A stretch of DNA of 64,000 nucleotides from an uncultured Gammaproteobacteria bacterium. Lineage in GTDB: Bacteria > Pseudomonadota > Gammaproteobacteria > JACCXJ01. This document shows positions 20,589 to 35,293 of this stretch, one piece after another. Within the stretch, counting starts at the first letter, position 1; the number at the start of each line of letters is the position of its first letter. The translations under genes and the position numbers were made by a program. The stretch is taken from positions 64,001 through 128,000 of the forward strand of contig CAVXTM010000018.1 of assembly GCA_963764725.1 (NCBI GenBank), written 5' to 3'. The notes beneath the pieces are model-generated. The model saw only the letters and a list, made by a program, of their open reading frames with translations, was not told where the DNA came from and ran no database searches.

Positions 20589-21266
20589 GTGGCCATCCCC
20601 GCGGCGGGGAAAGGCGCGCGGATCGGCACCGATCTGCCGAAGCAGTATCTTCCCCTTCTCGGCAAACCGATCATCGCGCATACGTTGGAGCGATTTCTCG
20701 AGCTACCGGCCATCGATGGAATCGTGGTTGCTATCGCGGCCGACGACCGTTATTGGGATTCGATAACTATCAGCAATCGAGGCAAAGTCTCTACCGTCGC
20801 GGGCGGCGCCGAACGCTGTCATTCGGTACTGGCGGCCCTGGAAAACCTGTTACGGCGAGCCAGTCCCGGAGACTGGGTATTGGTACACGACGCCGCGCGT
20901 CCCTGTGTTCGGGCTAAAGACATCGGCCGTCTCATAGAGCGCTGCTCGCGGCATGAGACGGGCGGGCTTTTGGCCTTGCCGGTACGCGACACCATGAAGC
21001 GCGCGGATGACGCTCAGGAGGTCGTTGAGACCGTATCGCGCGCGCGCCTTTGGCATGCCCTGACCCCGCAGATGTTTCGTCTCGGCGCGCTCTACCAGGC
21101 GCTCACCGAAGCCCTGCGTGAGGGACGGATCGTCACCGACGAGGCCGAGGCCATGGAGCTCATGGGCCATACGCCCTGTCTGGTGGAAGGCCATCCCGAT
21201 AACATCAAGATCACCCGCTCCGAAGATGTCGCGTTGGCCGAGTCTTTCCTGAGAGCTTGTGAATAA
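20589..21266 (+). CDS. ispD: MEP cytidylyltransferase (start uncertain)
   Basis: [30 protein letters not shown]. Confidence 0.95.
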
Positions 21267-21462
21267 ATCTACTGCGCAGCCCGCCCGCATCGTTGCGCGG
21301 TGCTCGGAATCCTCATGTATTTCCATATACACTGCGGTTGCTCGCCCCATCCTTGGGACTCGCCCCTTCGGGGCTTGCGCTCCGTTTCGCTCCCGGCGAA
21401 ACGGTCCTGCGCGCCGTGCGCCTCGCGGGCGGGCGTGCTCGCTACGATTTCTTCACAAGCTC
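21253..21462. mobile_element. MITE with GAG..CTC TIRs and 3-bp TGA target duplication
   Basis: GAGCTTGTGAATAAATC / GATTTCTTCACAAGCTC; TGA at 21250-21252 and 21463-21465; relative at 55516-55659. Confidence 0.82.
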
Positions 21463-21487
21463 TGAGCAGCTTTCGGCAAGAAGCGCT

Positions 21488-21958: not shown

Positions 21959-22288
21959 AGAATACGATCTATACTCTTTCGAGTCGCACGCCCCGCCTGG
22001 TACCCAGACATACCCAGACTCGCGCGTGTTTTTTTTAACGTGTGAAAAACCGAGGATCGTTTTCGAGCCGGTAATCCGACAGCGGATATTCCTTCGCTCG
22101 GGTTTTCCGAACTTCGCCATTTCGCAAAGTTTCCCGTCAGACCGTAAAACAACCCGAATTTCGTCCACTCGCAATCGGTGAGCGGCCGTATGTGGTTGCA
22201 CGGCGTATAGAGAGGGCCGGGCAAAGCACCGGAGCCACATAGCCCGCCAAATTCTCTAAACGGGCTATCCACTTAACGCAAGTCACCG

Positions 22289-23254
22289 CTATATGTTGGG
22301 GTCCGGGCTGTTGACGATTTGGCGGTAAGACACTGGCGGCGTCGCCACGGCCTGTTGCATCAGGCGGTAGAAGAGAAGCCCGCGGGAGCGAGAGGTGCGC
22401 CGGTTGAAGCGAAACGTGTATTCGTCGAGGTAGTAGTCGAGGTACCTGCCACTTACCGCGCCTTGGTGAGTTCCGAGCAGCCAGCGTTTGAGCAGAGAGG
22501 CGATGCGGTGGACACCGGGCATCAGGACATGGGCCGGGTCTCCGCTGTCGGAGAGATTCGTCTTGATGCGCGTATATCCAGACTTCGTCATGTCGTTGTA
22601 CCCGCCCCAGGCGTCGGTGAGAACTTCCGAACCGGGCTCAATGCTCTCGCGCACGAAAGGGACGAGATTGGCGCCGGAGGCGTCGGCCACACGTCTCATG
22701 CGCACGCGTCCAAATCCCTTCGGTTCGTGTAGTTCGACGGCGATGACCACAATCTCCTTTCGTTCTGCTCCACGGCCACGCTTACCGCCTTTTTCGCTGC
22801 CTCCTACGAGCGTCTCGTCCACTTCAACGCGACCATGAAGCCGCTCGCGCCCAGCTCGCACCATCGCGCGTCGCAGCTTATGCAACCAGGTCCATGCCGT
22901 TTGATAGCTTCCCAACCCCAGAACCCGCTTCAGGCCGAGAGCGTTGGCTCCATGCTTCTGACTCGTCACAAACCATATCGCCGCCAACCATGTCTTCAAC
23001 GGGATACGCGTTCGCTCGAACATCGTACCTGCCGTGACCGAGATCTCTGCACCGCAATCCCGACAATGCAGGTAACCTCGTCCCGTGATCCAGGGCGCAC
23101 CGCTGGACCCACAGCGTGGACAGTGGTAACCCGCTGGCCAGCGAAGGCCCGCAAGATACTCGCGACAGCCCGCATCGTCCTCGAAAAAATCATTGAACTC
23201 GCCGAATGTCCGAGGGTAGTCGGACCCGCCGACTGGCCCTTCCCCTGTCCCCAT
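22289..23254 (-). CDS. IS1595-family transposase
   Basis: LRWP..CPRC..CRDC zinc ribbon, VEVDET, TDAW, YLDEYTFRFNRR. Confidence 0.93.
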   Translation of the reverse strand: MGTGEGPVGGSDYPRTFGEFNDFFEDDAGCREYLAGLRWPAGYHCPRCGSSGAPWITGRGYLHCRDCGAEISVTAGTMFERTRIPLKTWLAAIWFVTSQKHGANALGLKRVLGLGSYQTAWTWLHKLRRAMVRAGRERLHGRVEVDETLVGGSEKGGKRGRGAERKEIVVIAVELHEPKGFGRVRMRRVADASGANLVPFVRESIEPGSEVLTDAWGGYNDMTKSGYTRIKTNLSDSGDPAHVLMPGVHRIASLLKRWLLGTHQGAVSGRYLDYYLDEYTFRFNRRTSRSRGLLFYRLMQQAVATPPVSYRQIVNSPDPNI

Positions 23255-23269
23255 GGGTAGCAAACACTA

Positions 23270-24523
23270 GTATAACGATTCTATAAAACATTTACTTTTA
23301 TGAGTAGCGGTGTCATCCTGGCTTCCCAGGCTTATCCATGGTCTGGGAGGGTGATGATGGCGGGAAAGACAAGGCGGGCGGCGCTGGAGGTTTCGGCAGA
23401 TGAACGCGAGAGGTTGGAGCGTTTGCGGGATTCGCGCAAGGCGCCGAAGCGGGAAGTCGAACGCGCGGCGATCCTGCTGCGCTACGCCGTGGGTGAGGGT
23501 CCGGCGGCGATCCAACAGGCGTTGGGGGTGAGCCGGCCGACTATTTACAAATGCATCGACAAGGCGCTGGCGGCCGGGGTGGACGCTGGACTGAAAGATC
23601 ACTACCACCGCCCCAAGGAGCCGCTGATTACACAGCAGGCGAAGGCGTGGGTGTTGAGATAGCGTGCACGAAGCCCACCGATCACGGCTTGGCGGCGGAG
23701 TTGTGGACGCTCTCCGCGCTCGCCCGCTATACCCGCGAGCACGCCGCTGTCGCGGGGCATGGGAGCCTGGCGCAGGCGGGCAAGGCGACGATCTGGCGCA
23801 TCCTGCACGCTGCTGAGATCAAACCCCATAAGGTGGAGTACTACCTGGAGCGCCGCGATGCGCAGTTTGAAGAGAAAATGTGCGAGGTGTTGATGGTCTA
23901 CCAGGAAGTCGCCCTTGCCAATGCCGCGCAGGCCTTGGGCGAGGACGCCGGTTCGGTCATTACCGTCAGCGTGGACGAGAAACCGGGCGTTCAGGCGATC
24001 GAGACTACCGCGCCCGATTTGCCGCCGGTGCCAGGGCAGCACGGCACCTGGAGTCGGGACCACGAGTACCAGCGCCATGGAACCCTGTCCATTCTCGCGG
24101 CCGTGGACTTGCACACCGGCGAAGTCATCGCACAAGTTCATCCGCGCCACCGTAGCCGCGAGTTCATCCTGCTGCTCAAGGAACTCGATGAGCACTACCC
24201 GAAGGCGTGCACCATTCGCGTGATCCTGGACAACCATTCAGCGCATATCTCCAAGGAAACCATGGCCTACCTCGCTTCGCGGCCCAACCGGTTCATCTAC
24301 GTCCATACGCCTAAGCACGGCTCTTGGCTGAACCTGATCGAAACCGTGTTCGGAAAAATGGCCCGTACGTTCCTCAAGGCTATACGCGTCAAGTCTCGCG
24401 AGGAACTTAAGAAGCGCATCTTGCAAGGTGTGCATGAGATGAATCTCGCCCCAGTCGTTGTGCGCTGGACGAAGTTCGATCTGGGGCTGGCATAACAGTA
24501 AGCTAATTGATGAATCGTTATAC
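23270..24523 (+). mobile_element. IS630-family element
   Basis: CTAGTATAACGATTC inverted at 23267-23281 / 24512-24526; TA duplication in a CTAG target. Confidence 0.9.
23354..24495 (+). pseudogene. IS630 transposase in two frames (shift near 23650)
   Basis: HTH half then DDE half (VDEKPG, LDNHSAH, TPKHGSWLNLIE); one base short at TGGGTGTTGAG. Confidence 0.85.
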
Positions 24524-24676
24524 TAGATGTTGTGGTGACTTGCGTCAAGTGGATAGCCCGTTTCTCTAAAACACGGCTTGATGTTACGAAGGGCTTAGTG
24601 AAGTTCTCGCGAAGCAACGCGATTCGGTCATATATCATGGCTTAAAGTCGTGTTAATCGACTCGCAGTCACTACTA

Positions 24677-24705
24677 TTGACAACAGCGTTGAGGGCGACT
24701 ACATT
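24677..24705 (+). promoter_or_regulatory. sigma70 promoter of the retron-like operon
   Basis: TTGACA(24677-24682)-17 nt-TACATT(24700-24705). Confidence 0.8.
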
Positions 24706-24714
24706 ACGCTCGGG

Positions 24715-24748
24715 CGCTGGTTATCCGGCGTACTCAGCTCTTTGACAA
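24715..24748 (+). promoter_or_regulatory. boxB-like hairpin + boxA-like antitermination motif
   Basis: CGCTGG-TTAT-CCGGCG then GCTCTTTGACAA (rrn boxA is GCTCTTTAACA). Confidence 0.5.
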
Positions 24749-24762
24749 GACGGAGCCTCAGC

Positions 24763-25051
24763 GCAAGACCTTAAGCGGTACGGATTTGTTCGTGCCGAAG
24801 TTGGGGGCTAAGCCCCCCTGAATGGCCCGCGATATCCTCGTGGGCCGCGTGCTCGAAGCACGCATGCTCCTCTCATCTCGATCTGCTCGGCATGGCAGCA
24901 CGGTAATTCGTTTGACGCCTTGAGATCAGATATGTAGGGGGCAAGAGCGCGCACATGCGCTCGCGAAATCTGAGTCACTCGGTCCACTCGGGCCTCTCTC
25001 GGGGTCTTGCCACACGGGCAAGGGGCAATTTGGCCCCTGTTCAGAGAGGTT
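24763..25051 (+). ncRNA. Putative retron msr-msd-like structured ncRNA
   Basis: GCAAGACCTT(24763-24772)/GGGGTCTTGC(25001-25010) inverted repeat enclosing hairpins at 24776-24797, 24803-24817, 24824-24846, 24847-24863, ~24865-24942 and 24945-24962. Confidence 0.72.
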
Positions 25052-25056
25052 TTGTC

Positions 25057-25284
25057 ATGAAAAGCATTGCGCTGAAGGAAGCACTGCGGCTGATCACCAA
25101 AGTGCAGACTAACCCGAGAGTAGGACCTGGCCAAGGAGATCAGTTGCAAAAGGCGAAACGAGAACTGGAGTCAATCGCACGATCCGGCAAGCTGGATAGG
25201 CAAAAAGTCTTTCTAGCTATCGAGATCGTTGCGACAGTTCTTCTAGAACTCGTTGAGGACGATGCAACCCGAAGGTCGGAGTGA
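25057..25284 (+). CDS. 75-aa helical small protein, putative retron effector
   Basis: AGAGAGG RBS, ATG 25057, GTGA coupling to the HTH gene; hydrophobic C-terminal helix VFLAIEIVATVLLELV. Confidence 0.65.
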   Translation: MKSIALKEALRLITKVQTNPRVGPGQGDQLQKAKRELESIARSGKLDRQKVFLAIEIVATVLLELVEDDATRRSE

Positions 25285-25646
25285 TTCAGAATCTAATGCA
25301 ACAAGACTACGCCAAAGCGTTCCGTATCATCCGCGCGGCCTTCGGACTCCGACAGTCCGAACTGGCCGAGCGGATGCCCATTACCGCGAGCCAGCTCTCG
25401 CTCATAGAAGCCGGGAAGCGCCAGCCGAGTCTGCGTGTAGTGAATGGTTTGGCAAACGCGGTCGGTGTGCCGGCCGCACTGATTTCCCTGCTCGCATCTA
25501 CTGCGAACGACGTTGAATCGAAACCGGACGAGGACATCTCCGACCTCGCTCGTGCGCTCCTGCGGCTCCTCGTGTCAGCGAGGGAAGAGCCTCAGCGCTC
25601 GTTCAAATTTCAGGGAGTAGGAGGTGCAACCGATCCTATCTGTTAG
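25281..25646 (+). CDS. XRE-family HTH protein
   Basis: IRAAFGLRQSELAE..SQLSLIEAGKRQPS..LANAVGV. Confidence 0.88.
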   Translation: MIQNLMQQDYAKAFRIIRAAFGLRQSELAERMPITASQLSLIEAGKRQPSLRVVNGLANAVGVPAALISLLASTANDVESKPDEDISDLARALLRLLVSAREEPQRSFKFQGVGGATDPIC

Positions 25647-26550
25647 GGATCTGGCGTCGCGACTGGGCACGCCTGCTGCTCGGCTTCGTGAAATCGCCGA
25701 CGATATTAAATCGCATTACAAGGTCTGGCCGCTGTTGGATAAAAAGAAGCATAAAGTTAGACACCTGAGGGTTCCCAGCAATGAGCTGAAGGAGATTCAG
25801 CGTCGGATAAAGAACAACATACTCGCGCCGATCACGCTCCGCGAAGGAGTGCATGGTGGAGTTCGCGGCCGATCGCCACGTTCAAACGCCACCCAGCACT
25901 TGGGTCGGCCCTGTGTGGTAAATCTCGACGTCAGGGACTTCTTCCCCAACGTTCGCCACTGCGTGGTTTACCGGTTGTTTCGGCGCGAACTCGGATTCGG
26001 CCGGGACGTAGCGAGACTCTTGACTCGACTGACCACACTCAACAGTCAGCTCCCCCAAGGCGCCCCAACAAGCACAGCCGTCGCCAACGTGCTTCTCGCG
26101 TTGCCCGTCGATGGCCCAATCTCCGTCGAGGCCGAACGCTTTGACGTCCGCTATACACGCTTTGTCAACGACATCACGTTCTCCGGTTCCAATCCGAGAC
26201 CATTGATCAACGTGGTCGGTCGAATGCTGTCGCGAAGACGATTGCCCATGTATCGGAAGAAGGCAAAGTGGCACTCGAAACCAAAGCTTAAGATCACCTC
26301 GAACTCCAAGCCTCAGGAAGTAACGGGCCTAATCGTAAATTCTAGAACAGGCCCAAGTGTCTCTCCACAACACCGAGACAATATCCGGGCTGCTATTTTC
26401 GGGCTTCGCAATACGACTGATGAAGCAGTGCTGCGCGCAGCGGCGAGTTCCATTCGCGGCAGAATCGCTTACGTTCGACAATTCAACCCCGGTTCGGCCA
26501 ACCGTATGCAGCTATGTCTGGAATCAACGCTCGCTCGGTGCGGTAAATAG
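25624..26550 (+). CDS. Retron-type reverse transcriptase with non-canonical FVND motif
   Basis: LKEIQRRI, NATQH (region X NAxxH), LDVRDFFP, LPQGAPTS, YTRFVNDITFS, VTGL (region Y). Confidence 0.9.
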   Translation: MQPILSVRDLASRLGTPAARLREIADDIKSHYKVWPLLDKKKHKVRHLRVPSNELKEIQRRIKNNILAPITLREGVHGGVRGRSPRSNATQHLGRPCVVNLDVRDFFPNVRHCVVYRLFRRELGFGRDVARLLTRLTTLNSQLPQGAPTSTAVANVLLALPVDGPISVEAERFDVRYTRFVNDITFSGSNPRPLINVVGRMLSRRRLPMYRKKAKWHSKPKLKITSNSKPQEVTGLIVNSRTGPSVSPQHRDNIRAAIFGLRNTTDEAVLRAAASSIRGRIAYVRQFNPGSANRMQLCLESTLARCGK

Positions 26551-26747
26551 GGACAGGCCACGGTTTTCTATTGAACGCGGTTGCGCTCAAACCGGCATCA
26601 GCCATGCGTCTTGGGCTCCTGTAGCGCCCAGTGCATGTGCATGAGAGCGACGGCATCGGCCCCCGGCCAAAGCCTTCAGTTGTGGGCTGTTGCTCGTGCG
26701 GCGGCTGCGGTAGTTCGGCATGTAATAACACTCATCGCAGATTCGTT

Positions 26748-27099
26748 ATGAGCCATCGGATCAACATCATTCTCGACGACGATATTTGGGAGTCTCTGCA
26801 AGCCGTTCCCAAGGGTAAGCGCAGCCCGCTCGTGAATCAGGCGATTGCCGCCTGGCTCGTCCAGAATAACCGCCGCGGCGCGCTGGGGAGGCGATGAATA
26901 CATTACGCAAGCGGGATAGACCGCTCGCCGGTGCGGCGGAGGATTGGGTGCGCGAAGACCGCGATCGGCATCGATGAGGATCGTCGTCCCCGACGCCTCA
27001 GTGTTGCTCAAATGGGGGTTCCTGCCGAACGGGAAACGTATATCGAGCCAGCGTTCGCGCTACGGGATGCGGGCAGTGCAGGCTCACATGGATCCATAG
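26748..27099 (+). pseudogene. Decayed vapBC module: frameshifted antitoxin + PIN N-terminal remnant
   Basis: MSHRINIILDDD.. continuing in a shifted frame to WVREDRDRHR*; ATGA-coupled MRIVVPDASVLLKW at 26974, truncated. Confidence 0.65.
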
Positions 27100-27126
27100 C
27101 GGGGAGAAAATGCCCGGCCCCGCTCG

Positions 27127-27984
27127 CTAGCGCTCTCCGCGAGCGCTTACGAAGGCGACCTTCACCCCCGCGTTGCTGACACCCAAGTAGCGAAGGAACA
27201 CGTACCAAAAAAGCGTAATGGCCAGCATCTCGACGGTCTCTTCAAACGCCTTGCCGAAGTGTCTGACCATGCCGAAGGCCGGCGCAGGCGCATCGTCCGC
27301 GATCCAGACTCCGGTATCAAGAAATTGGGCGATGAGTCTGTATATATTCCAGGGGTGCCCGGGCATCAGCCCTTCAATGAAATCAAGACCCACCGCGAAC
27401 GCCTGGAGGCTGAGCGCCGCGATGACAAGCCACCGTTGCCCGGCTTCCCGTAGCTCCCGCCAGAGAAACACGAATAGATACAGCCCGAGCAAGCCGAATA
27501 CCGGAACGAACAGGAGCTGCCAGGGGTAACTCGGGAAACGCTCAAATACCGATCCGGGTGCCCGGGAGAGAGCGTAAAAAGCGCTCCCTAGCCGCTCGTG
27601 GATCTGCACGCCGTCATCGATCGCCATGTAGATGAAAAGCGCGGCCACGATGGCCCAGCCGCGGCCCCTCTGTGAGGCCGAACGAGCCTGTGCCACGAAG
27701 TAGATCATAAGCGCGGTCAGCCCGGTCAGAAGCGTCTGGGTGGCCCCGAACCAAGACGCCGCGCTGTCTTCGCGGGTGATGTTGAAGAGGCGCCGCAGCG
27801 GTCCGATCGCTGCTCCTAGTCGATAGTTCATGACATAGTCGAGCAGGAGAAACGCGAGCCCGAGAAAAATGCCCATCCAAAGCACACGCCGAGCGACCCG
27901 CACGAGGTCCAACGTGAGAGCGGGGGCAGCGATAGCGTCGCTTTCAAAGGTAAAGCGCATGCCGGAGGATGACGACTTGATCAA
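27127..27984 (-). CDS. Multi-pass membrane protein of unknown function
   Basis: ~7 hydrophobic segments; DD..QIHE, EE..EM motifs. Confidence 0.7.
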   Translation of the reverse strand: MIKSSSSGMRFTFESDAIAAPALTLDLVRVARRVLWMGIFLGLAFLLLDYVMNYRLGAAIGPLRRLFNITREDSAASWFGATQTLLTGLTALMIYFVAQARSASQRGRGWAIVAALFIYMAIDDGVQIHERLGSAFYALSRAPGSVFERFPSYPWQLLFVPVFGLLGLYLFVFLWRELREAGQRWLVIAALSLQAFAVGLDFIEGLMPGHPWNIYRLIAQFLDTGVWIADDAPAPAFGMVRHFGKAFEETVEMLAITLFWYVFLRYLGVSNAGVKVAFVSARGER

Positions 27985-28205
27985 TGCAAAGCATACCGCC
28001 TCAAAGCTTCACCGCCCAACGCCACGCCATTCAGTAGCCGTTCAGCTTGGACCTGTAGAGTGTGCATTCGTACAATCGGGATGATCCTCTCCTCTCGAGT
28101 GTGCCAAGGTTAATGCATCGCCGGCGAGAGTGCATCGCGTTTTGGTCTTAGAAAACCATATCTCGCAATACGCAGCGAAGCGGGCATCGGTTCAGGAGGT
28201 TTTTA

Positions 28206-28532
28206 ATGCACGGGGTCGGTACTGGAATTCTCGAGCAAACGCCGCTAACACGTGTGCACAGACGCTTAGCGATTTTGGTTCCCATCGTCGCTTCGTTGGC
28301 CATATCGCCGTGTGTCTTCGCCGACCCCCCGTACCGGACGCCAGCACCTGGATACTACTCTAAACATCACCACTTTCATCACTTCGGCGACGACGATGAT
28401 AGTAGTGATGACGAAAGCAGCGGCCACGGGTATAGACGCTATTCTTATGATTATGATGTGCACCATCACGATCACTATTATGACGGCAATCCCTTCGACG
28501 ATGAGGCCTATGAGGTCGAATACGAATGGTAG
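28206..28532 (+). CDS. Small putatively secreted His/Asp/Tyr-rich protein
   Basis: Signal-peptide-like N-terminus then HHHFHHFGDDDDSSDD, YDYDVHHHDHYYD. Confidence 0.5.
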   Translation: MHGVGTGILEQTPLTRVHRRLAILVPIVASLAISPCVFADPPYRTPAPGYYSKHHHFHHFGDDDDSSDDESSGHGYRRYSYDYDVHHHDHYYDGNPFDDEAYEVEYEW

Positions 28533-28865
28533 TGAGCAGGGCGGAATCACTCGGTTCGCGGCCACGAGATTAGCGATCCACCGGCATTGGACTCGCCCAC
28601 CCTAGGATTTAAACACCCCGTCGCCCCCCACGGCCGCCGGTATTCAACCCAAATCCAACAGACTGCTAGGTCGAGGGCTCGGATGTTTGACAACTCACTA
28701 GCCTAGCACTACCGTGCCTATTGATTCCGGTGCGGGTGCGGAGGCTGCACGTAGGCCGACAGCCGGTCCAGCCACTCCTTATTCATCCTGGCCCCCGCCA
28801 TTGCAGCGGGACATTCTAACAGGCAGGTCAGTAACAACTATTGATCGAGGGATCGTTTAATCGCC

Positions 28866-31023
28866 ATGGAAGAGGATTTGACCATCGCGGATCTGAGCAT
28901 CGCATCAGACGCCGATTGGCACTTACCCGGGACGAAGCTTCATCGGTATCGCGTCGACAGCGTCCTCGGCCAGGGGGACTATTGGTTAACCTATTTAGCC
29001 AGTGACCTGAACCTGGGCCGCCCGGTTATTATTACCGAATACATGCCGTGCGAGATCGCCATACGCGATACGCGCGGCGTGATTCATCCTGCCGCTGCGG
29101 AGCATGGCGCGGAGTATAAGGCTGGGACTTGAGTGCTTCCTGACTGACGCGCAAAAGCTCGCCGGGATCAGGCATCAAAATATCGCCCTAGCGTTGAATG
29201 CCTTCGAAGCGAACAACAGCGCTTATATCGTCGTCGCGCACGAGCAAGGCAAGAAAGCAGAACACCTCTTTGATGGCTCAACTGTGGCGGAAAAGGAGCT
29301 TCTCGCCTTGGTATTACCGATCCTGGACGGGCTCGAAGCGATCCACGCAAGCGGCTATATTCACCGCTACATTCAGCCGTCAAACATTATTATTCGTCCA
29401 GATGGGAGCCCCGTGTTAACGGGCTTCAACCCGGGCGGCGGCGCTCTCTTCAACCCCGCTAGCACATTGACCAAGCATTTCCCATCGGACTTCGCGCCCA
29501 TCGAGCTTTGCTTTGGCGATGGCGAGCTGCATGGCCCGTGGACCGACATTTTCAGCCTTGGCGCAACGCTCTACCAGGCAGTGGTTGGCGTTGCACCGGT
29601 AGCTGCAATCGAGCGCAGTCGCATGGTCGTCCAAGGCGAAACCGATCCGCTGATGTCCGTACTGCCGGTTGGGCAGGAAAACTATAGCGATGCCTTTCTT
29701 AAAGCCATTGATCATGCCTTACGTTTTTTACCCACGCAGCGGCCGCTGACCGTTGCGGCGTGGCGCAAGGAGCTATCCGGGAACGACTCGCTCGACATCG
29801 ACTTTGTGATCCGGCCTAAATCAGAGCACGTGGTCAAGCTGCGTGATGATGTCGAGACACTACGAGCCCAGGAAGATCACAAGCGGCGCGTGGCCGAAGA
29901 GGAGCGGACCGTCAGGAAGCTTCTCGACCTCGCGCGCACCGCCATAAGCGAACACGATCTGCAGACGGCTCAGACCAGGCTCGACGAGGCCGCGGGAATC
30001 GCACCGACATCGGAAGCCGTAGCCCACCTTCGCGAGGAGCTCAAGGCGCGCGAGACCGCGGTCGTAGAGCAACGCCTCGTGAAGGAGACGCGGCACCTAC
30101 AGGCCGAAGAGACCGCGAACGAGTTAGTTACGCTTGGCCGCGATCCGACGGGCAACCAAGCACGGCCCGCCGTTGCAGGGAGGAGGGACGGGAAAATTGA
30201 GAGCATCCCGGCGTTAAATCGGTCATTACAACCAGCGGATGTTCCGGTGAACATCCCGATAATGAACGACTGGGTACGGAGCACGGTCGATCCCTCCAAT
30301 GAAACGGCGGGCGGCAGTCCCCCCGAACGGGACCTGCGACGACGGCACCGCGGCAAGTGGCTCGGATACTCTGCCGCGACCGCAGGGATAGTGGGTCTGG
30401 GACTCTCCTTGGCGTGGATGCGTCCGGGTTCGTTTGCTATCCTCTACGATGCGGCAGACGAATGGCTTTCCGGAAACCTCTTTCGTGACGAGCCAACCGA
30501 AACCCTGCCCAAGCCGGCGGCCCAAGTACCCGTACCGGGACGTGAGGATCCAGCCGGAGCGCCGCCCGTTTTCCAACCGCGCTTGGATCAGGAGCAATGG
30601 GACGCGGCTCGGACCAGGCTCGACGAGGCCGCCGTGAACGCACCGGAATCGGAAACCGTAGCCGGCCTTCGCGACGAGCTCAAGGCGCGCGAGACCAGGC
30701 AAGTAGCGATCCGAGAGGTCACCCCCTCGCGTGTTCGTGTGAGGCCGGGCGAGACCGTACGGTTTTATACCGAATATTCTCTAAGCCTTCCGGCGAGCGA
30801 CAAGGAAGCTCATGTGAAAGCCACCTGGGTGCTGCTTCGAGGCGGCCGGAAAATCGGGCGAGAAGGTATCGACAATCGATACGCAAGGGCAGGCCTCAAT
30901 ACCGCGGTAACCGAGCTGACATTACCACCCCGGACCGCATCCGGGGAATACACCGTCGAGCATCGGGTGCAGGTGGGTGATAGCTTCGATGTGGCGCACT
31001 CGCGTTTTGTCCTAGCGAGGTAG
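28866..31023 (+). pseudogene. Ser/Thr kinase-like (pseudokinase) - TM - extracytoplasmic protein, +1 frameshift at ~29121
   Basis: VLGQG..TYLA, TEYMP, HRYIQPSNI, APIE, GPWTDIFSLGATLY; ORFs 28866 and 29104 join by removing one G. Confidence 0.72.
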
Positions 31024-34000
31024 TGCGACCCTGGCCTCCGCGTCGAACACGGTTGCGACGGCGGGCGTGGAGCGCCGGCGGGCGAGCAGCGTATAGGCCG
31101 TAGGGATCACGAACAAGGTCAGGAGCGTCCCGAGCGACAGTCCGCCTACGATAACCCAGCCGATGGGTTGGCGGCTCTCGGCACCGGCGCCTACCGCCAA
31201 TGCCAATGGTGCGGCGCCGAGGATCATCGCGAAGGTGGTCATCAGGATCGGCCGTAACCGCAACCCCGCCGCCTCGATCACGGCATCGAGCCTGGCGTGT
31301 CCCCGGCCCTGAAGCTGGTTAGCGAACTCCACAATCAAGATACCGTTCTTCGTGATAAGGCCGACCAACATCACCAGTCCGATCTGGCTATACACGTTGA
31401 GCGTGCCGCCGGAGGCCTTCAGCGCCAACAGCGCGCCGGCGACGGCAAGCGGTACGGTCAAGAGGATGACCAAGGGATCGATAAAGCTCTCGAATTGAGC
31501 CGCCAAGACGAGGTAAATGAATATTAGTGCCAAGGCAAAGGTCGTATACAAGGTCGTGCTGGACTCACGAAACTCCCGTGATTGCCCGTCAAGATCGGTA
31601 CGTGCCGCCGGCGGCAAAACTTCCTTGGCAGTTTCTTCCAGGAACCGTAGCCCATCACCTAATGAATAACCGGGAGCTATGCCCGCGCTAATAATTGCGG
31701 CGCGCAGCCGATTGAAGTGATTGAGCGCCACGGGAGCGACGGTCTCCGTCACGGCAACCACGTTGTCAAGCTGCACTAACTGGCCAGCCCCGCCGCGCAC
31801 ATAGATCGACGTCAGATCGTCCGGCGTTCTACGCTCGGCATCCGCGACTTTCACGATGACGTCGTACTGTTCTCCCTCCCGCTTGAAACGCGTAACCTGG
31901 CGGCCGCCGAGCAGAGTTTCGAGCGTGCGGCCGATCTCCGCCACCTCGACGCCGACGTCCGCCGCCTTGTCGCGGTTGACCGCGATCCGCAACTGAGGCT
32001 TGTTAAGCTTAAGATCAACGTCAAGATTCACGAGCCCAGCAAACTGCTGCCCTTTGTTGACGAGTGCGTCCACCAAAGTTTGCAGCTCGGCATAGGAATT
32101 TGCCTGCACCACGAATTGCACCGGCCGGCTGGCAAAGCTTTGGCCGAGCGAAGGGGGATTGCTCGGGAACGCTAAGACGCCAGGCAAGGAAAAGAGCTTG
32201 GGCTGTAGTGCCGCCGCTAGTTCCTGCTGGCTGAGCGTGCGTTCCGACCACGGCTTGAGGTTAATAAAGGCCAAGGCCGAGTTGACCGGGTTGGGTCGCT
32301 GGAGGCCGGGGGCCACCACCATGAAATACCCTTTCACCTCGGGGATCCGGCTTAGAATGTCCTCGATCCGTCGCGCGTAGCGGTCGGTGTAGGCCATCGT
32401 AGCCCCTTCCGGGGCGCTGACGCTAGCGATGATGATGGATCGATCCTCAATCGGCGCAAGTTCCGACTTGAGCTCGGTGAACAGAACCGCGCTCATGGCC
32501 GCGACGCCAAGCACCCCAAGCAAGACCATCCCCCTGTGCTTCAATGCCGCCGTTAGAACCTTGCGATAGGCGAGCGTCAGACTCGCCAACCAACGCTCGG
32601 AAGCCGTATATATCCAGCCGTGCGCCGACCGGGCCACGAGCATCTTGGAGCACATCATCGGCGTCAGGGTCAAGGCCACGAACCCCGAGACCATCACGGC
32701 CGCGGATACCGCCAAGGCGAATTCCCGAAACAACCTGCCGGTGTTGCCGCTCATATACGCAAGCGGGGCAAAAACGGTGGCAAGCGTCAAGGTCATCGCG
32801 ATCACCGCGAAGGCGATCTCGCGGCTCCCTTCGAACGCCGCACGGACCGGAGCCATACCCTGCTCGATGCGGCGGTAGATGTTCTCGAGCATGACGATGG
32901 CATCATCGACGACCAATCCGATGGCCAGGACGAGTGCAAGCAAGGTGAGCACATTGACCGTGAAACCGAAGGCATAGATAAAGATAAAGGCCCCGATGAG
33001 CGATACCGGGATAGTGACGAACGGAATGAGCGTCGCGCGCACCGAACGCAGAAACACGAAGGTCACCGCCAAGACCAGCAGCAAGGCCTGCCCCAGCGTG
33101 TAAAACACCTCTTCGATCGAGCGTTCAATAAACAGCGCGCTGTCATAGGCCACGCGCAGTTGCATTCCCGGCGGCAGGCTTGCCGTGATCGCGGGTAGCT
33201 CGTTCTTAACCGCTTGCGCCACCTCGAGCGTATTAGCGGTGGATTGCTTGACGACCCCGAGCCCCACGGCCGGCTGCCCGTTAACGCGTACGGCGTTGCG
33301 ATCATCCTCCGCGCCGAGCTCGGCGCGGCCAACGTCCCGCAAGCGAACCGGGTAACCGTCAACCTCACGGATAATCAGTTGATTGAACTGTTCGGGCGTG
33401 CGTAAATCGGACTCGGTCAGTACCGAGAATTCGCGCTCGCGGCTTTCGATGCGGCCCGCGGGGATCTCGACGTTGCGTTGATTCAAGGCGTCTTCGATAT
33501 CCTGGGGCGACAACTCGTAGCCTGCGAGCCGCGCCCGGTTCAGCCAGATCCGCATGGCATAGCGGCGCTCTCCGCCGATGATGATGCTGGCGACACCCGC
33601 TAAGGATTGCAACCGATCCTCGACATAACGATCGGCGAAATCGGTGATCTCTAGCGGTGTATGCCGATCACTGAAAAATGCCAGCCAGATGATGGCCTGG
33701 TCATCGACATCGACCTTCGAGATAACAGGTTCATCCGCTTCGCGCGGGAGCTGATCGCGCGCCCGCGAAACTCTGTCTCGTACGTCCGCCGCCGCGGCAT
33801 CCGGATCGCGATCGGGTTGGAACGTGATACTGATCTGGCTGACTTCCTCGCGGCTGACGGATTTCAAGGTTTTGATACCCTCAATACCCGCGACCGAGTC
33901 CTCGATCGGCCGGGTGACTTGGCTTTCGATGACTTCGCTCGAGGCGCCTGGGTAGACGGTGCGCACCGTCATCGCCGGCGCATCGATGTCGGGATACTCG

Positions 34001-34104
34001 CGCACCGGCAAGCGCTCATAAGCCATGAGCCCGAGCAACACCAGCACCAGGCTCATGACCGTGGCCAGCACGGGACGGCGGATCGAGAGATCGGAGAGGA
34101 CCAT
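31012..34104 (-). CDS. RND efflux permease (AcrB/AcrD/AcrF family)
   Basis: IRRPV, GLVVDDAIV, ALTLTP, KNGILIVEFA, RLRPILMT. Confidence 0.96.
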   Translation of the reverse strand: MVLSDLSIRRPVLATVMSLVLVLLGLMAYERLPVREYPDIDAPAMTVRTVYPGASSEVIESQVTRPIEDSVAGIEGIKTLKSVSREEVSQISITFQPDRDPDAAAADVRDRVSRARDQLPREADEPVISKVDVDDQAIIWLAFFSDRHTPLEITDFADRYVEDRLQSLAGVASIIIGGERRYAMRIWLNRARLAGYELSPQDIEDALNQRNVEIPAGRIESREREFSVLTESDLRTPEQFNQLIIREVDGYPVRLRDVGRAELGAEDDRNAVRVNGQPAVGLGVVKQSTANTLEVAQAVKNELPAITASLPPGMQLRVAYDSALFIERSIEEVFYTLGQALLLVLAVTFVFLRSVRATLIPFVTIPVSLIGAFIFIYAFGFTVNVLTLLALVLAIGLVVDDAIVMLENIYRRIEQGMAPVRAAFEGSREIAFAVIAMTLTLATVFAPLAYMSGNTGRLFREFALAVSAAVMVSGFVALTLTPMMCSKMLVARSAHGWIYTASERWLASLTLAYRKVLTAALKHRGMVLLGVLGVAAMSAVLFTELKSELAPIEDRSIIIASVSAPEGATMAYTDRYARRIEDILSRIPEVKGYFMVVAPGLQRPNPVNSALAFINLKPWSERTLSQQELAAALQPKLFSLPGVLAFPSNPPSLGQSFASRPVQFVVQANSYAELQTLVDALVNKGQQFAGLVNLDVDLKLNKPQLRIAVNRDKAADVGVEVAEIGRTLETLLGGRQVTRFKREGEQYDVIVKVADAERRTPDDLTSIYVRGGAGQLVQLDNVVAVTETVAPVALNHFNRLRAAIISAGIAPGYSLGDGLRFLEETAKEVLPPAARTDLDGQSREFRESSTTLYTTFALALIFIYLVLAAQFESFIDPLVILLTVPLAVAGALLALKASGGTLNVYSQIGLVMLVGLITKNGILIVEFANQLQGRGHARLDAVIEAAGLRLRPILMTTFAMILGAAPLALAVGAGAESRQPIGWVIVGGLSLGTLLTLFVIPTAYTLLARRRSTPAVATVFDAEARVALPR

Positions 34105-34111
34105 GGGAAAG

Positions 34112-35209
34112 CTACCCGGCGGCTGGATCGACGCCGCGGGCGTCGGACCAGTCCGTGGCTTGGATCGGGACGCCGTCCTGGAGCTTGGCGTAGCCCTCCG
34201 TCACGACAATGTCACCTACCCCCAAACCGGCGGTGATTTCGACCTCTCCGGGGACGCGCGTCCCGGTGGTGACCTGGGTCAGCACGGCTTTACCGCCGAC
34301 CGCGCGGTACACGAACTGGCCACTCGCCATCGGCACCAGGGCCTGTTCCGGCACCCACAACGCGTCCTTCCGCACCGACAGGATGAGGCTGGCGCGGGCG
34401 AACATGCCTGGCCGTAACTTGAGGTGCTCATTGGGGATGCGACCCCGGACCCGAAGGCTACGGGAGGCTTCGTCGATGCGCGGGTCGACGGCGTAGATCT
34501 CGCCCTCGAAGATGGTCTCCGGAAAGGCTTCGACTTGAACGACGATCCGCTGGGCCGGCCGCACCTCGGCCGCGTGGCGCTCCGGGATGCGGAGATCGAT
34601 CTTGATGGGATCGATGGCCTCCAGGTTGACCAGATCCTGGCCCTTCTTGACATAATCGCCGGGACTGATCCGCCGCAAACCGAGGATGCCGCTGAAGGGC
34701 GCGCGCAGCACGGTCTTGTTCAAGCGTGCCCGGGCCAAGGCGAGAGTGGCGCGCGCCTCCTTGAGGACCGCGTCCATCTCGTCGTATTCTTGCTTGCTCA
34801 TCACCCGCTTGGTGAGGAGATCGCGGGCGCGTTTGAATTTCAATTCCCCGAGTGCCAGGCCGGCTTCACGCTGATCGACCTCCGCCCGGTATTCGACGGG
34901 ATTGAGCATGACCAACACGTGGTCCTTGTCGACCGGCTGGCCTTCTTGAACATCGAGGGCGCCGACCCGCCCGTCGATCTCCGAGCGGATCACGACCGCC
35001 TCGTCCGCGAGGAGCGTACCGACGCTCTCTACTCTTTGGTTGGCGGGGCCCCTGCGCACGCCCGAGGTCACCACCGCAACCGCGGGGCTGCTCAACGCGG
35101 CCGGCGCCGGGCCGAGGCTTTGAGGGTGGGGCGTTACGGGGCGCAAGTAGTACCCCACCGTGCCGGCACATAGAAAAAGTGCCAATAGTATCGCTAGAGC
35201 CTTCTTCAC
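34112..35209 (-). CDS. RND periplasmic adaptor subunit (start uncertain)
   Basis: TM anchor, RAPFSG, LRPGMF; upstream of the RND permease. Confidence 0.9.
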   Translation of the reverse strand: MKKALAILLALFLCAGTVGYYLRPVTPHPQSLGPAPAALSSPAVAVVTSGVRRGPANQRVESVGTLLADEAVVIRSEIDGRVGALDVQEGQPVDKDHVLVMLNPVEYRAEVDQREAGLALGELKFKRARDLLTKRVMSKQEYDEMDAVLKEARATLALARARLNKTVLRAPFSGILGLRRISPGDYVKKGQDLVNLEAIDPIKIDLRIPERHAAEVRPAQRIVVQVEAFPETIFEGEIYAVDPRIDEASRSLRVRGRIPNEHLKLRPGMFARASLILSVRKDALWVPEQALVPMASGQFVYRAVGGKAVLTQVTTGTRVPGEVEITAGLGVGDIVVTEGYAKLQDGVPIQATDWSDARGVDPAAG

Positions 35210-35293
35210 CTTGCGGGGAGCGATCGGTTTTGCTGGGGGGACGGGTCGTGGATAATGGCGTCCTTTGAGCGAGTGACAGTAGCATACGTGCTT

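What the first reader, a model, noticed from the sequence alone, without database searches (positions are those of the whole stretch)
24677..26550. Retron-like four-part system: structured ncRNA + small protein + XRE-HTH + reverse transcriptase
Seen: a TTGACA-17-TACATT promoter, then ~340 nt of dense hairpins, then three overlapping ORFs (75-aa protein, XRE-HTH, 308-aa RT). The RT carries both retron signatures, NAxxH (NATQH) and VTG. Established: retrons are RT + msr/msd + effector anti-phage modules, and an HTH-associated class exists (type VI in the Mestre et al. scheme, from memory). Inference: this is a compact defence operon inserted after ispF among IS and TA debris, and its effector is a small protein I do not recognise.
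Basis: partly seen in the sequence, partly recalled or inferred. Interest (0 to 1): 0.9.

Follow-up and report, generated by a model that had tools for sequence, protein, structure and literature searches.

The report
Type VI retron with mutated RT
This is an ordinary member of a recently characterised bacterial anti-phage system (a Type VI retron: structured RNA, small toxin, repressor-like antitoxin and reverse transcriptase), notable mainly because this copy carries a mutation in the enzyme's catalytic centre that probably switches its defence off.

Summary
There is a promoter at 24677-24705, a ~350-nt highly structured leader, a 75-aa ORF, an XRE/Cro-type HTH and a 308-aa retron RT with NATQH and VTG.

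PADLOC profiles name the RT RT_VI (9.1e-63) and the HTH HTH_VI (1.6e-17). The gene order SP-HTH-RT recurs in 51 of 56 related loci.

The leader is a canonical retron ncRNA, supported by covariation. It has an a1/a2 stem, an invariant AGC (branching G at 24775), four msr hairpins and a hypervariable msd hairpin. Two further covarying pairings tie it to the small ORF: an anti-RBS stem over the SP start, and an IR1-IR2 stem closing the RNA at the SP stop. This is the 'hybrid RNA' architecture published for Retron-Vpa2 (2025) and Retron-Sen3 (2026).

The 'unrecognised' small protein is therefore the known SP toxin class: 75 aa, three helices, hydrophobic C-terminal core.

New here: the RT reads FVND where 120 of 120 protein homologues and 155 of 155 related loci read xxDD. 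This is the only deviation at 59 conserved columns. Closely related environmental contigs read Asp. Catalytic-site RT mutants of both studied Type VI retrons lose defence without becoming toxic, so this copy is probably disarmed.

Verdict: new member of a known kind, modest interest.

The parts
24667..24681 (+). Operator-like palindrome GTCA-N7-TGAC overlapping the -35 box. It is a candidate binding site for the HTH protein (inferred).
   Evidence: The exact motif occurs at a fixed distance (70-78 nt upstream of the conserved CTCTTT) in 25 of 46 upstream regions. Among the 30 regions where the promoter lies inside the extracted stretch, 25 carry it. 1.8% of shuffled sequences carry a match.
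24677..24705 (+). Sigma-70-type promoter TTGACA-17-TACATT
   Evidence: 10 of 12 consensus positions. The -35 TTGAC is conserved in the alignment of related loci.
24713..24733 (+). Conserved 5' stem-loop (SL0) upstream of a1, followed by the conserved GCTCTTT at 24737-24743
   Evidence: Helix 2: 96.1% of cells paired, and 5 of 8 pairs carry compensatory changes. An equivalent stem-loop is reported as essential for defence in Retron-Sen3.
24746..24759 (+). Anti-RBS segment pairing with the SP ribosome-binding site and start codon (25046-25059)
   Evidence: window MFE. In one search, across 33 loci, cognate duplexes average -13.76 kcal/mol against -7.42 for non-cognate pairs, and 0 of 2000 permutations were as stable.
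24763..24770 (+). a1 inverted repeat, which pairs with a2 at 25003-25010
   Evidence: Helix 6: 85.3% paired, and 6 of 8 pairs carry compensatory changes. Also predicted by RNAalifold.
24774..24776 (+). Invariant AGC. G24775 is the putative branching (priming) guanosine.
   Evidence: A73 G74 C75 are invariant in 44 of 44 sequences. The position just 3' of a1 matches canonical retrons. The assignment as branching G is inferred.
24776..24863 (+). msr-like domain: four hairpins at 24776-24797, 24803-24817, 24824-24846 and 24847-24863
   Evidence: Helices 7, 8, 10 and 11: 90.3, 73.5, 92.9 and 96.2% paired, with 8/9, 5/5, 7/9 and 5/6 pairs carrying compensatory changes.
24865..25002 (+). msd-like template. 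It comprises a hypervariable long hairpin (24865-24943), a GC hairpin (24945-24962), IR1 (24969-24980) and CTCGG direct repeats.
   Evidence: The variable segment is 48-144 nt long (median 71). It folds as one long hairpin or hairpin-dominated structure in most of the 44 sequences despite no sequence conservation. GC hairpin: 80% paired. The msr/msd boundary and the template role are inferred.
25003..25010 (+). a2 inverted repeat
25057..25284 (+). SP: a 75-aa small protein and the presumed toxin. RBS AGAGAGG lies at 25043-25049.
   Evidence: No Pfam or PADLOC family. Conserved family in 62 ORFs of related loci. Predicted as three helices (3-17, 24-43, 48-74), pLDDT 90.2. Hydrophobic core at residues 51-66.
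25279..25290 (+). IR2, which pairs with IR1 (24969-24980). It overlaps the SP stop codon and lies just upstream of the HTH start.
   Evidence: 86.0% of cells paired against 22-52% with slid partners; 11 of 15 pairs carry compensatory changes; 0 of 500 shuffles reach the observed pairing.
25296..25646 (+). Cro/C1 (XRE)-type HTH protein and presumed antitoxin/repressor. It is 116 aa from ATG 25296; an alternative GTG start at 25281 gives 121 aa.
   Evidence: PADLOC HTH_VI 1.6e-17; Pfam HTH_31 3.6e-11 and HTH_3 4.7e-10. Start inferred from homologues.
25624..26550 (+). Retron reverse transcriptase, 308 aa, Type VI
   Evidence: PADLOC RT_VI 9.1e-63 (210 bits); Pfam RVT_1 1.4e-08; NCBIfam retron St85 RT 7.8e-46, below that model's cut-off. 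984 homologues with E <= 0.001.
26167..26169 (+). Codon AAC = Asn182, at the first Asp of the YxDD catalytic box (FVND)
   Evidence: 120 of 120 protein homologues read DD, as do 155 of 155 related loci. It is the only deviation at 59 columns that are >=95% conserved. Related environmental DNA contigs read G at 26167.

Best explanation
The locus is a Type VI retron in the canonical order: promoter, ncRNA, SP, HTH, RT.

One transcript from the promoter at 24677-24705 carries a retron msr-msd RNA. This comprises a1/a2, the branching G at 24775, four msr hairpins and a variable msd hairpin. It is fused to the coding sequence of a 75-aa toxin (SP), forming a 'hybrid RNA'.

In the resting fold, a 5' anti-RBS segment (24746-24759) base-pairs with the SP ribosome-binding site and start codon. 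IR1, which lies inside the template region, pairs with IR2 at the SP stop codon. Translation of the toxin is therefore held down.

By homology with Retron-Vpa2 and Retron-Sen3, the HTH protein neutralises SP and restrains the RT, and probably represses the promoter through the GTCA-N7-TGAC palindrome. Also by homology, phage inhibition of RecBCD or phage recombination proteins triggers reverse transcription and/or release of SP, and the infected cell is arrested (abortive infection). Reverse transcription starting next to a2 would have to run through IR1 within about 35 nt. This gives a plausible physical link between cDNA synthesis and refolding of the mRNA (inferred).

In this particular copy the first catalytic Asp of the RT's YxDD box is Asn. 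The RT probably cannot polymerise, so the system is probably a tolerated, defence-dead ('disarmed') retron whose SP-HTH pair may still act as a toxin-antitoxin module.

Shown here: family assignment, synteny, RNA architecture with covariation, and the substitution with its uniqueness. Inferred: every functional step.

My odds: Type VI retron about 0.95; RT of this copy inactive about 0.6.
For: Family assignment:
- RT_VI is the best of 51 PADLOC RT families (210 bits; the next scores 178).
- HTH_VI hits at 1.6e-17.
- Retron signatures NAxxH and VTG are present.

Synteny: 51 of 56 loci with an RT >=45% identical and more than 650 nt of upstream DNA encode both SP and HTH.

RNA:
- z = -6.96 for the leader.
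- RNAalifold predicts 35 pairs, 29 with compensatory changes.
- With the window's own fold, 72.0% of cells are paired against 38.7-46.2% for slid partners. The covariation score is 0.231 against 0.086-0.117, and 0 of 500 shuffles reach it.
- AGC is invariant in 44 of 44 sequences.
- A variable msd hairpin is present across the 44 sequences.
- The IR1-IR2 and anti-RBS pairings covary.

Expression hint: in two small metatranscriptome runs of one study, the contigs that are 100% identical to the window cover only 24779-25286, and 24795-25077 plus 25077-25278. That is the ncRNA plus the SP coding sequence. One further 61-nt piece at 25207-25267 differs at 7 positions. No contig covers HTH or RT.

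SP:
- Three-helix model, pLDDT 90.2.
- C-terminal hydrophobic core.
- Size matches Mestre's 75-79-aa class.
- HTH-SP complex prediction gives weak support: ipSAE 0.56 against 0.01 for the best of 3 controls. That mark was reached by 58 of 80 solved complexes and 2 of 110 mismatched pairs, but scores of 0.60 or under came from only 7 of those 80 and from both mismatches. The three runs agree in >=86% of contacts and the partner's pLDDT is >=74.

Mechanism by homology:
- Vpa2 sections read: hyRNA, SP toxic, dRT not toxic but defence lost, HTH represses reverse transcription.
- Sen3 sections read: SP toxin, HTH antitoxin, RBS in the basal stem, IR1-IR2, catalytic mutant loses defence.

D182N:
- Searches show it is unique and is the only conserved-column deviation.
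- Relatives read G at 26167: X1 in 1 of 1 covering contigs, X2 in 2 of 2.
- The same substitution in HIV-1 RT (D185N) 'genetically ablates RT' (PMC7871456, passage read).

Accessory status:
- Single copy in the genome.
- Not found in 8 same-genus or 6 same-family genomes (this count rests partly on unpublished genomes G001, G002, G005, G007 and G008).
- It lies in a ~6.7-kb variable island after ispF (published genomes G003 and G006 only).
Against: - No experiment. msDNA, toxicity, defence and HTH binding are all untested for this lineage.
- Type VI membership of the RT rests on HMM scores with a moderate margin (32 bits), not on a phylogeny with labelled references.
- Which published SP cluster (cl2075, cl3272, other) this family belongs to could not be determined.
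- No sequencing run holds more than 34% of the sampled words of the stretch. The A at 26167 therefore could not be checked against source reads and could be an assembly or consensus error.
- Asn at a metal-binding Asp is not proven to be inactivating in retron RTs.
- Apart from this one codon, SP, HTH, RT and RNA all look intact. That fits a very recent mutation, but equally fits an error.
- The two published Type VI systems differ in how activation works: translational for Vpa2, post-translational for Sen3. Which applies here is open.
- The RNA evidence comes from assembled contigs of a single study. It cannot show transcript ends, strand or level.
- The complex prediction gives only weak support.
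Confidence: 0.8

Rival explanations
1. A fully functional Type VI retron. On this reading, the Asn at residue 182 is either an assembly or sequencing error (a single A for G), or is tolerated, for example with Mn2+ or because Asp183 and the motif-A Asp suffice.
For: Everything except this codon is intact. The RT deviates from its 120 homologues at only 1 of 59 highly conserved columns. SP, HTH and all RNA helices are canonical. No source reads could be found to verify the base.
Against: The deviation sits exactly on a catalytic residue that is invariant in 120 of 120 proteins and 155 of 155 loci. The equivalent D185N ablates HIV-1 RT. Loss of RT catalysis is non-toxic in Vpa2 and Sen3, so such a mutation would be tolerated and could drift in. 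The genome is 96.9% complete in 19 contigs, which does not suggest a poor consensus.
Confidence: 0.3
2. A toxin-antitoxin pair (SP-HTH) that now persists as an addiction or stabilisation module of the IS-rich island. On this reading the RT and ncRNA are relics on the way to decay, and the system has no defence role.
For: In Sen3 the HTH-SP module works independently of RT and ncRNA (abstract). The RT catalytic box is mutated here. Related loci L156-L159 carry only a 162-aa RT stump without SP or HTH, showing that these retrons do decay. The locus sits next to IS1595- and IS630-type transposases.
Against: There is only one lesion in about 1.9 kb. All RNA helices needed for reverse transcription are intact in this copy (mapped onto). 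The hybrid RNA seems to be abundant in metatranscriptomes.
Confidence: 0.15
3. Not a retron: a different RT-based element (group II intron, DRT/UG, Abi or DGR) with a coincidental structured leader.
For: Pfam sees only a generic RVT_1 domain. Rfam has no family for the leader (3 matches, all far below gathering scores). NCBIfam retron models score below their cut-offs.
Against: Group II intron RT scores 27.7 bits against a 300-bit cut-off, and Drt2 22 bits against 390. All top PADLOC hits are retron RTs. NAxxH and VTG are present. The a1/a2 stem plus invariant AGC plus msd hairpin covary.
Confidence: 0.01

Closest known systems
Retron-Sen3 (Type VI retron, cl2075 lineage, Salmonella enterica; bioRxiv 10.64898/2026.04.27.721009)
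   Same: - SP-HTH-RT order.
- A small helical SP with a C-terminal hydrophobic core (79 aa there, 75 aa here).
- Cro/C1 HTH as antitoxin.
[quoted passage not shown] - A long internal stem-loop with a non-conserved centre.
- A long-range IR1-IR2 pairing that brackets the SP gene (searches compared).
   Different: - Host and lineage differ. All close relatives here are soil or sediment Beta-/Gammaproteobacteria MAGs and metagenome contigs, and no enterobacterial locus was among the 80 best.
- The IR1-IR2 stem covaries strongly here (11 of 15 pairs), whereas the authors found no significant covariation for it in cl2075.
- IR2 here overlaps the SP stop codon instead of lying downstream of it.
- The RT here has FVND.
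Retron-Vpa2 (Type VI retron, 'Large' lineage, Vibrio parahaemolyticus; bioRxiv 10.1101/2025.10.22.683967)
   Same: - A hybrid RNA that joins msr-msd and a translationally repressed toxin ORF.
- The transcript's 3' part anneals back to the ncRNA.
- The RBS and start codon are held in stems.
- The RT, HTH and RNA form one system.
- RNA coverage is confined to ncRNA plus SP (one search compared).
   Different: - The Vpa2 SP is 55 aa and lacks the N-terminal extension.
- Its hyRNA is about 470 nt, against about 580 nt here (about 24712 to 25290).
- The SP profile built here does not reach loci outside its own RT subclade.
- The RT is catalytically intact in Vpa2.
Canonical retrons (e.g. Ec86/Eco1; Mestre et al. 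2020, PMC7736814)
   Same: An RT with NAxxH and VTG; a1/a2 inverted repeats; a branching G in a conserved AGC; msr hairpins; a variable msd stem-loop (one search compared).
   Different: In canonical retrons the ncRNA is a separate non-coding unit and abundant msDNA acts as the antitoxin. In Type VI the toxin ORF is part of the same RNA, and msDNA is scarce or uncoupled from neutralisation.
Type II toxin-antitoxin modules with XRE/HipB-like HTH antitoxins
   Same: A small toxin next to an HTH antitoxin. A palindromic operator lies over the promoter, suggesting autoregulation. Direct binding is weakly supported by prediction.
   Different: The gene order is toxin first. The toxin is additionally controlled at the level of mRNA structure. 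The module is embedded in a retron with its own RT.

Membership tests
Retron (RT + msr-msd ncRNA) | RT with region X NAxxH and region Y VTG | tested here: met
   NATQH at residues 88-92 and VTG at 233-235. VTG is found in 109 of 121 aligned sequences and ITG in 9. The definition is from PMC7736814.
Retron (RT + msr-msd ncRNA) | Adjacent ncRNA with a1/a2 inverted repeats, a branching G, msr hairpins and a variable msd stem-loop | tested here: met
   a1/a2 is 85.3% paired and 6 of 8 pairs carry compensatory changes. AGC is invariant in 44 of 44. The msr helices are 73-96% paired. The msd hairpin is 48-144 nt long across the 44 sequences. That G24775 is the actual branch point is inferred.
Retron (RT + msr-msd ncRNA) | Catalytically competent RT (YxDD box) | tested here: not met
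   The box reads FVND. 120 of 120 homologues and 155 of 155 loci read xxDD. Related DNA contigs read GAC. This concerns the present activity of this copy, not its ancestry.
Retron (RT + msr-msd ncRNA) | Production of msDNA | not testable with these tools
   This needs expression and nucleic-acid analysis. Type VI retrons often show none under basal conditions.
Type VI retron (Mestre et al. 2020) | RT belongs to the Type VI clade (clade 3) | tested here: inconclusive
   The best PADLOC profile is RT_VI (210 bits, 9.1e-63), against 178 bits for RT_III-A. No phylogeny with labelled references was possible, because the supplements are closed. A profile built from this RT's relatives also retrieved loci in Ca. 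Levybacteria, Bacteroides and Pseudomonas. The Sen3 paper names these taxa among tested Type VI representatives.
Type VI retron (Mestre et al. 2020) | Cro/C1-type HTH protein (cluster 2_1, 91-110 aa) immediately upstream of or overlapping the RT | tested here: met
   HTH_VI 1.6e-17 and HTH_31/HTH_3 hits. The protein is 116-121 aa and overlaps the RT by 23 nt. It is present in 51 of 56 related loci.
Type VI retron (Mestre et al. 2020) | Small (75-79 aa) helical auxiliary protein (SP) upstream of the HTH, with a three-helix fold and a C-terminal hydrophobic core | tested here: met
   75 aa; helices at 3-17, 24-43 and 48-74, pLDDT 90.2. Hydrophobic core at 51-66. Descriptions were read. Assignment to a named SP cluster was not possible.
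Type VI retron (Mestre et al. 2020) | Hybrid RNA: ncRNA and SP ORF on one structured transcript, with a sequestered SP RBS and a long-range closing stem | tested here: met
   The anti-RBS pairing and the IR1-IR2 pairing both covary. The RNA contigs identical to the window cover only 24779-25286. This last point is a weak hint: one study, contigs only.
Type VI retron (Mestre et al. 2020) | SP toxic, neutralised by HTH; phage defence by abortive infection | not testable with these tools
   There is only a weak in-silico hint for HTH-SP binding: ipSAE 0.56 against 0.01 for the best control.

The most novel reading that the evidence does not exclude
On this reading, the Asn182 allele is real and is kept rather than merely tolerated. 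The retron's RT would have been converted into a non-catalytic RNA-binding scaffold. The hybrid RNA, SP and HTH would then work as an RNA-gated toxin-antitoxin switch without any cDNA. This would be a natural 'RT-dead' retron state, for example selected after self-triggering by resident mobile elements. It would show that Type VI retrons can lose reverse transcription yet remain functional.
Probability: 0.08. Interest if true: 0.55.

Novelty: new member of a known kind. Interest (0 to 1): 0.3.

Why it matters
The class is already known and its mechanism is being worked out in two model systems, so this locus does not open a new question. It still adds three modest things.

1. A large, purely environmental sub-lineage of Type VI retrons: at least 51 related loci carry the full SP-HTH-RT arrangement. 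Its RNA carries unusually clear covariation for the two regulatory pairings (anti-RBS/RBS and IR1/IR2) that the published models depend on. One of these (IR1-IR2) lacked significant covariation in the Sen3 lineage.

2. Metatranscriptome contigs suggest that the ncRNA plus SP part accumulates in nature.

3. A natural single-codon knockout of the RT catalytic box. If real, it is a ready-made control for testing what reverse transcription contributes, and an example of how bacteria may silence a costly abortive-infection system without losing the toxin's antidote.

Tried and rejected
- Rfam scan of 24400-26900 at E <= 10 gave 3 matches (RT-12, mir-1471, STnc320), all far below their gathering scores. 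No described RNA family covers the leader.
- A single-protein scan of genome contigs with the RT found nothing. The profile scan worked.
- Foldseek of the SP model against the PDB gave 277 matches at E <= 10 but 0 at E <= 0.001. All were generic helical bundles, so there is no clue to the toxin's target.
- NCBIfam for SP gave one chance-level match (ClpG, E = 0.032). Pfam and PADLOC gave none.
- Whole-segment RNAduplex of the leader against the SP 3' end gave uninformative over-long duplexes. I replaced it with the column-wise test.
- The idea that the conserved GCTCTTT (24737-24743) is the anti-SD for SP or HTH: it is complementary to AGAGAG, but both partners are nearly invariant, so there is no covariation to test. 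Left open.
- Pfam on the small ORFs downstream of the RT (26748-26894, 26944-27096) and on the 284-aa ORF at 27127-27981 gave nothing at E <= 0.01, and only chance-level hits at E <= 5. 'TA debris' is unsupported.
- Finding the source reads: no run holds more than 0.34 of the sampled words, so the base at 26167 could not be verified.
- The habitat labels of the runs were not used as evidence.
- No RT phylogeny was built, because no labelled reference RTs of other retron types were at hand.
Full report
**What is there**

ORF listing and direct reading of the sequence give four features on the + strand:
- a promoter-like TTGACA-17-TACATT at 24677-24705;
- a 351-nt leader;
- a 75-aa ORF (SP, 25057-25284) and an HTH ORF (25281 or 25296 to 25646);
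- a 308-aa RT ORF (25624-26550).

The leader folds far better than shuffles: -169 against -134.5 +/- 5.0 kcal/mol, z = -6.96. The RT carries NATQH and VTG.

The YxDD box of the RT reads FVND.

**Family assignment**

- Pfam sees RVT_1 in the RT and HTH_31/HTH_3 in the middle ORF, and nothing in SP.
- Among PADLOC profiles the RT matches RT_VI best (9.1e-63, 210 bits; next is RT_III-A at 178 bits).
- The HTH matches HTH_VI (1.6e-17; next is RmrA at 8.5e-07).
- NCBIfam retron models hit below their cut-offs. Non-retron RT families are negligible: group II intron 27.7 of 300 bits, Drt2 22 of 390 bits.
- Rfam has no family for the leader.

**Literature**

A full-text search for 'type VI retron' found 4 papers.

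Mestre et al. 2020 (PMC7736814; passages read) defined Type VI as clade-3 RTs with a Cro/C1 HTH protein. [quoted passage not shown]

Zhang et al. (bioRxiv 10.1101/2025.10.22.683967; abstract and sections 7, 8 and 25 read) studied Retron-Vpa2. They showed that:
- the msr-msd and the small ORF lie on one 'hybrid RNA';
- SP is the toxin;
- RT, HTH and the RNA form a complex;
- a catalytically dead RT is not toxic but abolishes defence;
- msDNA accumulates only on triggering and derepresses SP translation.

Garcia-Rodriguez et al. (bioRxiv 10.64898/2026.04.27.721009; abstract and sections 25, 27, 28, 29, 31 and 33 read) studied Retron-Sen3. They showed:
- an SP toxin and an HTH antitoxin;
- the SP RBS buried in the basal stem;
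- an IR1-IR2 pairing bracketing SP;
- RecBCD inhibition as the trigger;
- loss of defence in the RT catalytic mutant.

The 'unrecognised small protein' therefore belongs to a known component class.

**Relatives and synteny**

The RT has 984 homologues with E <= 0.001, the closest at 89% identity. A profile of 34 of them (A1) brought in 80 loci from species-representative genomes and 80 from metagenome contigs. A single-sequence scan had found none.

Of the 82 loci whose RT is >=45% identical, 56 have more than 650 nt upstream of the RT. Of these, 51 encode both a homologue of SP and of the HTH, none has the HTH alone, and 5 have neither. The 5 exceptions are:
- L156-L159, where the RT is a 162-aa stump next to unrelated genes;
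- L033, which is only a partial match.

A profile of the SP family finds 62 ORFs (61 in related loci, plus the window's own copy, L161). It reaches loci with RTs only 37-40% identical (L011, L153-L155), but not the Bacteroidota, Pseudomonas or Moraxella loci. This fits the published observation that RT subclades track SP clusters.

Close relatives are soil or sediment Beta-/Gammaproteobacteria MAGs.

**The RNA**

I aligned 44 distinct leaders (A2).

RNAalifold predicts 35 pairs, and 29 of them carry compensatory changes. I then mapped the window's own minimum-energy fold onto the alignment:

| Measure | Observed | Partners slid by 1-3 columns |
|---|---|---|
| Cells paired | 72.0% | 38.7-46.2% |
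| Covariation score | 0.231 | 0.086-0.117 |

0 of 500 shuffles reach the observed values. One caveat applies: a structure taken from one of the aligned sequences favours itself in such a test.

The well-supported helices give a canonical retron ncRNA:

| Element | Window position | Cells paired | Pairs with compensatory changes |
|---|---|---|---|
| 5' stem-loop SL0 | 24713-24733 | 96.1% | 5 of 8 |
| a1 with a2 | 24763-24770 with 25003-25010 | 85.3% | 6 of 8 |
| msr hairpin 1 | 24776-24797 | 90.3% | 8 of 9 |
| msr hairpin 2 | 24803-24817 | 73.5% | 5 of 5 |
| msr hairpin 3 | 24824-24846 | 92.9% | 7 of 9 |
| msr hairpin 4 | 24847-24863 | 96.2% | 5 of 6 |
| GC hairpin | 24945-24962 | 80% | 5 of 6 |

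An AGC just 3' of a1 is invariant in 44 of 44 sequences (24774-24776; putative branching G at 24775).

A segment of 48-144 nt (median 71) has no sequence conservation, yet folds into one long hairpin, or a structure dominated by one, in most of the 44 sequences. Its z-score is below -2 in 22 of 44. This is the msd-type stem-loop.

Two further pairings connect the ncRNA to the SP gene.

1. **Anti-RBS.** The variable segment between the conserved GCTCTTT and a1 (window 24746-24759) is complementary in each locus to that locus's own SP Shine-Dalgarno-to-AUG region (window 25046-25059). Across 33 loci, cognate duplexes average -13.76 kcal/mol against -7.42 for non-cognate pairs. The cognate partner ranks in the top three in 29 of 33 loci, and 0 of 2000 permutations are as stable.

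2. **IR1-IR2.** IR1 (24969-24980) lies inside the presumed template, 22 nt from a2. It pairs with IR2 (25279-25290), which overlaps the SP stop codon and lies just upstream of the HTH start. 86.0% of cells are paired against 22-52% for slid partners, 11 of 15 pairs carry compensatory changes, and 0 of 500 shuffles reach the observed pairing.

Both features were described for Sen3. There the IR1-IR2 stem did not covary significantly. Here it does.

**Promoter**

A palindrome GTCA-N7-TGAC overlaps the -35 box (window 24667-24681). It recurs at a fixed position in 25 of 46 upstream regions. Among the 30 regions where the promoter lies within the extracted stretch, 25 carry it, against 1.8% of shuffles. 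I read it as the likely HTH operator (inferred).

**Proteins**

- The SP family is well conserved (A3).
- The AlphaFold model has three helices (3-17, 24-43, 48-74), pLDDT 90.2 and pTM 0.75.
- Residues 51-66 form the hydrophobic maximum. This matches the published descriptions.
- Foldseek against the PDB gives no significant match.
- Most HTH homologues start MxQDYAKAF, so ATG 25296 is the likelier start.

An HTH-SP complex prediction gave 'weak support'. The ipSAE score was 0.56 against 0.01 for the best of 3 controls. The pass mark was reached by 58 of 80 solved complexes and 2 of 110 mismatched pairs. Scores of 0.60 or under, however, came from only 7 of those 80 solved complexes and from both mismatches that passed. 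The runs agree in >=86% of contacts and the partner's pLDDT is >=74.

**The catalytic box**

- In an alignment of the window RT with its 120 best homologues, all 120 read [FY][VI]DD where the window reads FVND.
- In 155 of 155 related loci whose match covers the box, the last two residues are DD.
- Of 59 columns that are >=95% conserved among the homologues, the window deviates only at this one. A typical homologue deviates at a median of 1 such column, so the RT is not generally decayed.
- The codon is AAC (26167-26169), one transition from GAC.

No public run holds more than 34% of the stretch's sampled words, so the source reads could not be checked.

In two DNA metagenome runs holding close relatives, every contig covering 26167 reads G. 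That is 1 contig in X1 and 2 contigs in X2. Asp is therefore the state in the nearest relatives.

The same change at the first Asp of HIV-1 RT (D185N) ablates reverse transcription (PMC7871456, passage read). In Vpa2 and Sen3 the catalytic-box mutants lose defence without toxicity. I conclude, at about 0.6, that this copy is a tolerated, defence-dead retron. The main alternative is a consensus error.

**Expression hint**

Two small metatranscriptome runs of one study were laid over the whole 1.9-kb stretch. The contigs that are 100% identical to the window cover only 24779-25286 (one 508-nt contig), and 24795-25077 plus 25077-25278. That is the ncRNA from just after the branching G to the SP stop codon. 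One further short piece from the second run (25207-25267) differs at 7 of 61 positions and looks like a relative's. No contig lies on HTH or RT.

This agrees with an abundant hybrid RNA. It is weak evidence, because it rests on contigs from a single study and shows no ends or strand.

**Genomic setting**

- Upstream lie pyrG, kdsA, eno, ftsB, ispD and ispF.
- Next come an IS1595-family transposase on the minus strand and a two-ORF IS630-type transposase.
- The retron is single-copy in the 4.2-Mb genome.
- It was not found in 8 same-genus and 6 same-family genomes. This count rests partly on unpublished genomes G001, G002, G005, G007 and G008.
- In the published same-genus genome G003, ispF is followed after about 0.8 kb by DNA that matches window 28773-36367 at 93% identity. 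In G006 similarity ends at window 22076.
- Window ~22077-28772 is therefore a ~6.7-kb strain-specific island that holds the IS elements and the retron.

**Verdict**

This is a genuine Type VI retron with complete hybrid-RNA architecture. It is a new environmental member of a kind that has been described and is under mechanistic study.

Its one unusual trait is the Asn in the catalytic box. That is worth a check of the base and a simple N182D comparison, but it is not a new kind of system.

Noticed in passing
window about 21249-21466 (between ispD and ispF): A ~215-nt multi-copy repeat (MITE-like) is inserted between ispD and ispF. In same-genus genomes ispD abuts ispF at this locus, yet each genome carries dozens of copies of the repeat elsewhere; the window's own genome has 45 matches. 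The repeat explains the apparent N-terminal extension of the ispF ORF. The copy counts rest partly on unpublished genomes G001, G002, G005, G007 and G008.
   Followed up: partly
window about 22077-28772: A ~6.7-kb strain-specific island after ispF. It holds an IS1595-family transposase (22289-23263, minus strand), an IS630-type pair (23300-23662 and 23551-24495), the retron, two small unassigned ORFs and a 285-aa membrane-like ORF (27127-27984, minus strand). In G003 it is replaced by about 0.8 kb.
   Followed up: partly
L156-L159 (metagenome contigs), RT match at 2001-2450: Four related loci carry only the first ~150 residues of the RT (a 162-aa ORF in L156). They lack SP, HTH or a leader, and sit next to a Fic-like gene and a sensor kinase. 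These are apparent retron remnants.
   Followed up: partly
window 24737-24743: A nearly invariant GCTCTTT lies just after the 5' stem-loop. It is complementary to AGAGAG, which occurs both in the SP RBS (25043-25049) and at the 5' edge of IR2 near the HTH start. It may take part in an alternative fold. There is no covariation to test it.
   Followed up: partly
window 24977-25003: Three direct repeats of CTCGG lie between IR1 and a2. They are conserved in sequence rather than by pairing. Direct repeats in loops were also noted for the Vpa2 hybrid RNA.
   Followed up: no
window 24779: The 508-nt RNA contig identical to the window starts 4 nt 3' of the putative branching G (24775). Whether this reflects RNA processing, a block at a branch point during library preparation, or chance in assembly is unknown.
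   Followed up: no
   Followed up: partly
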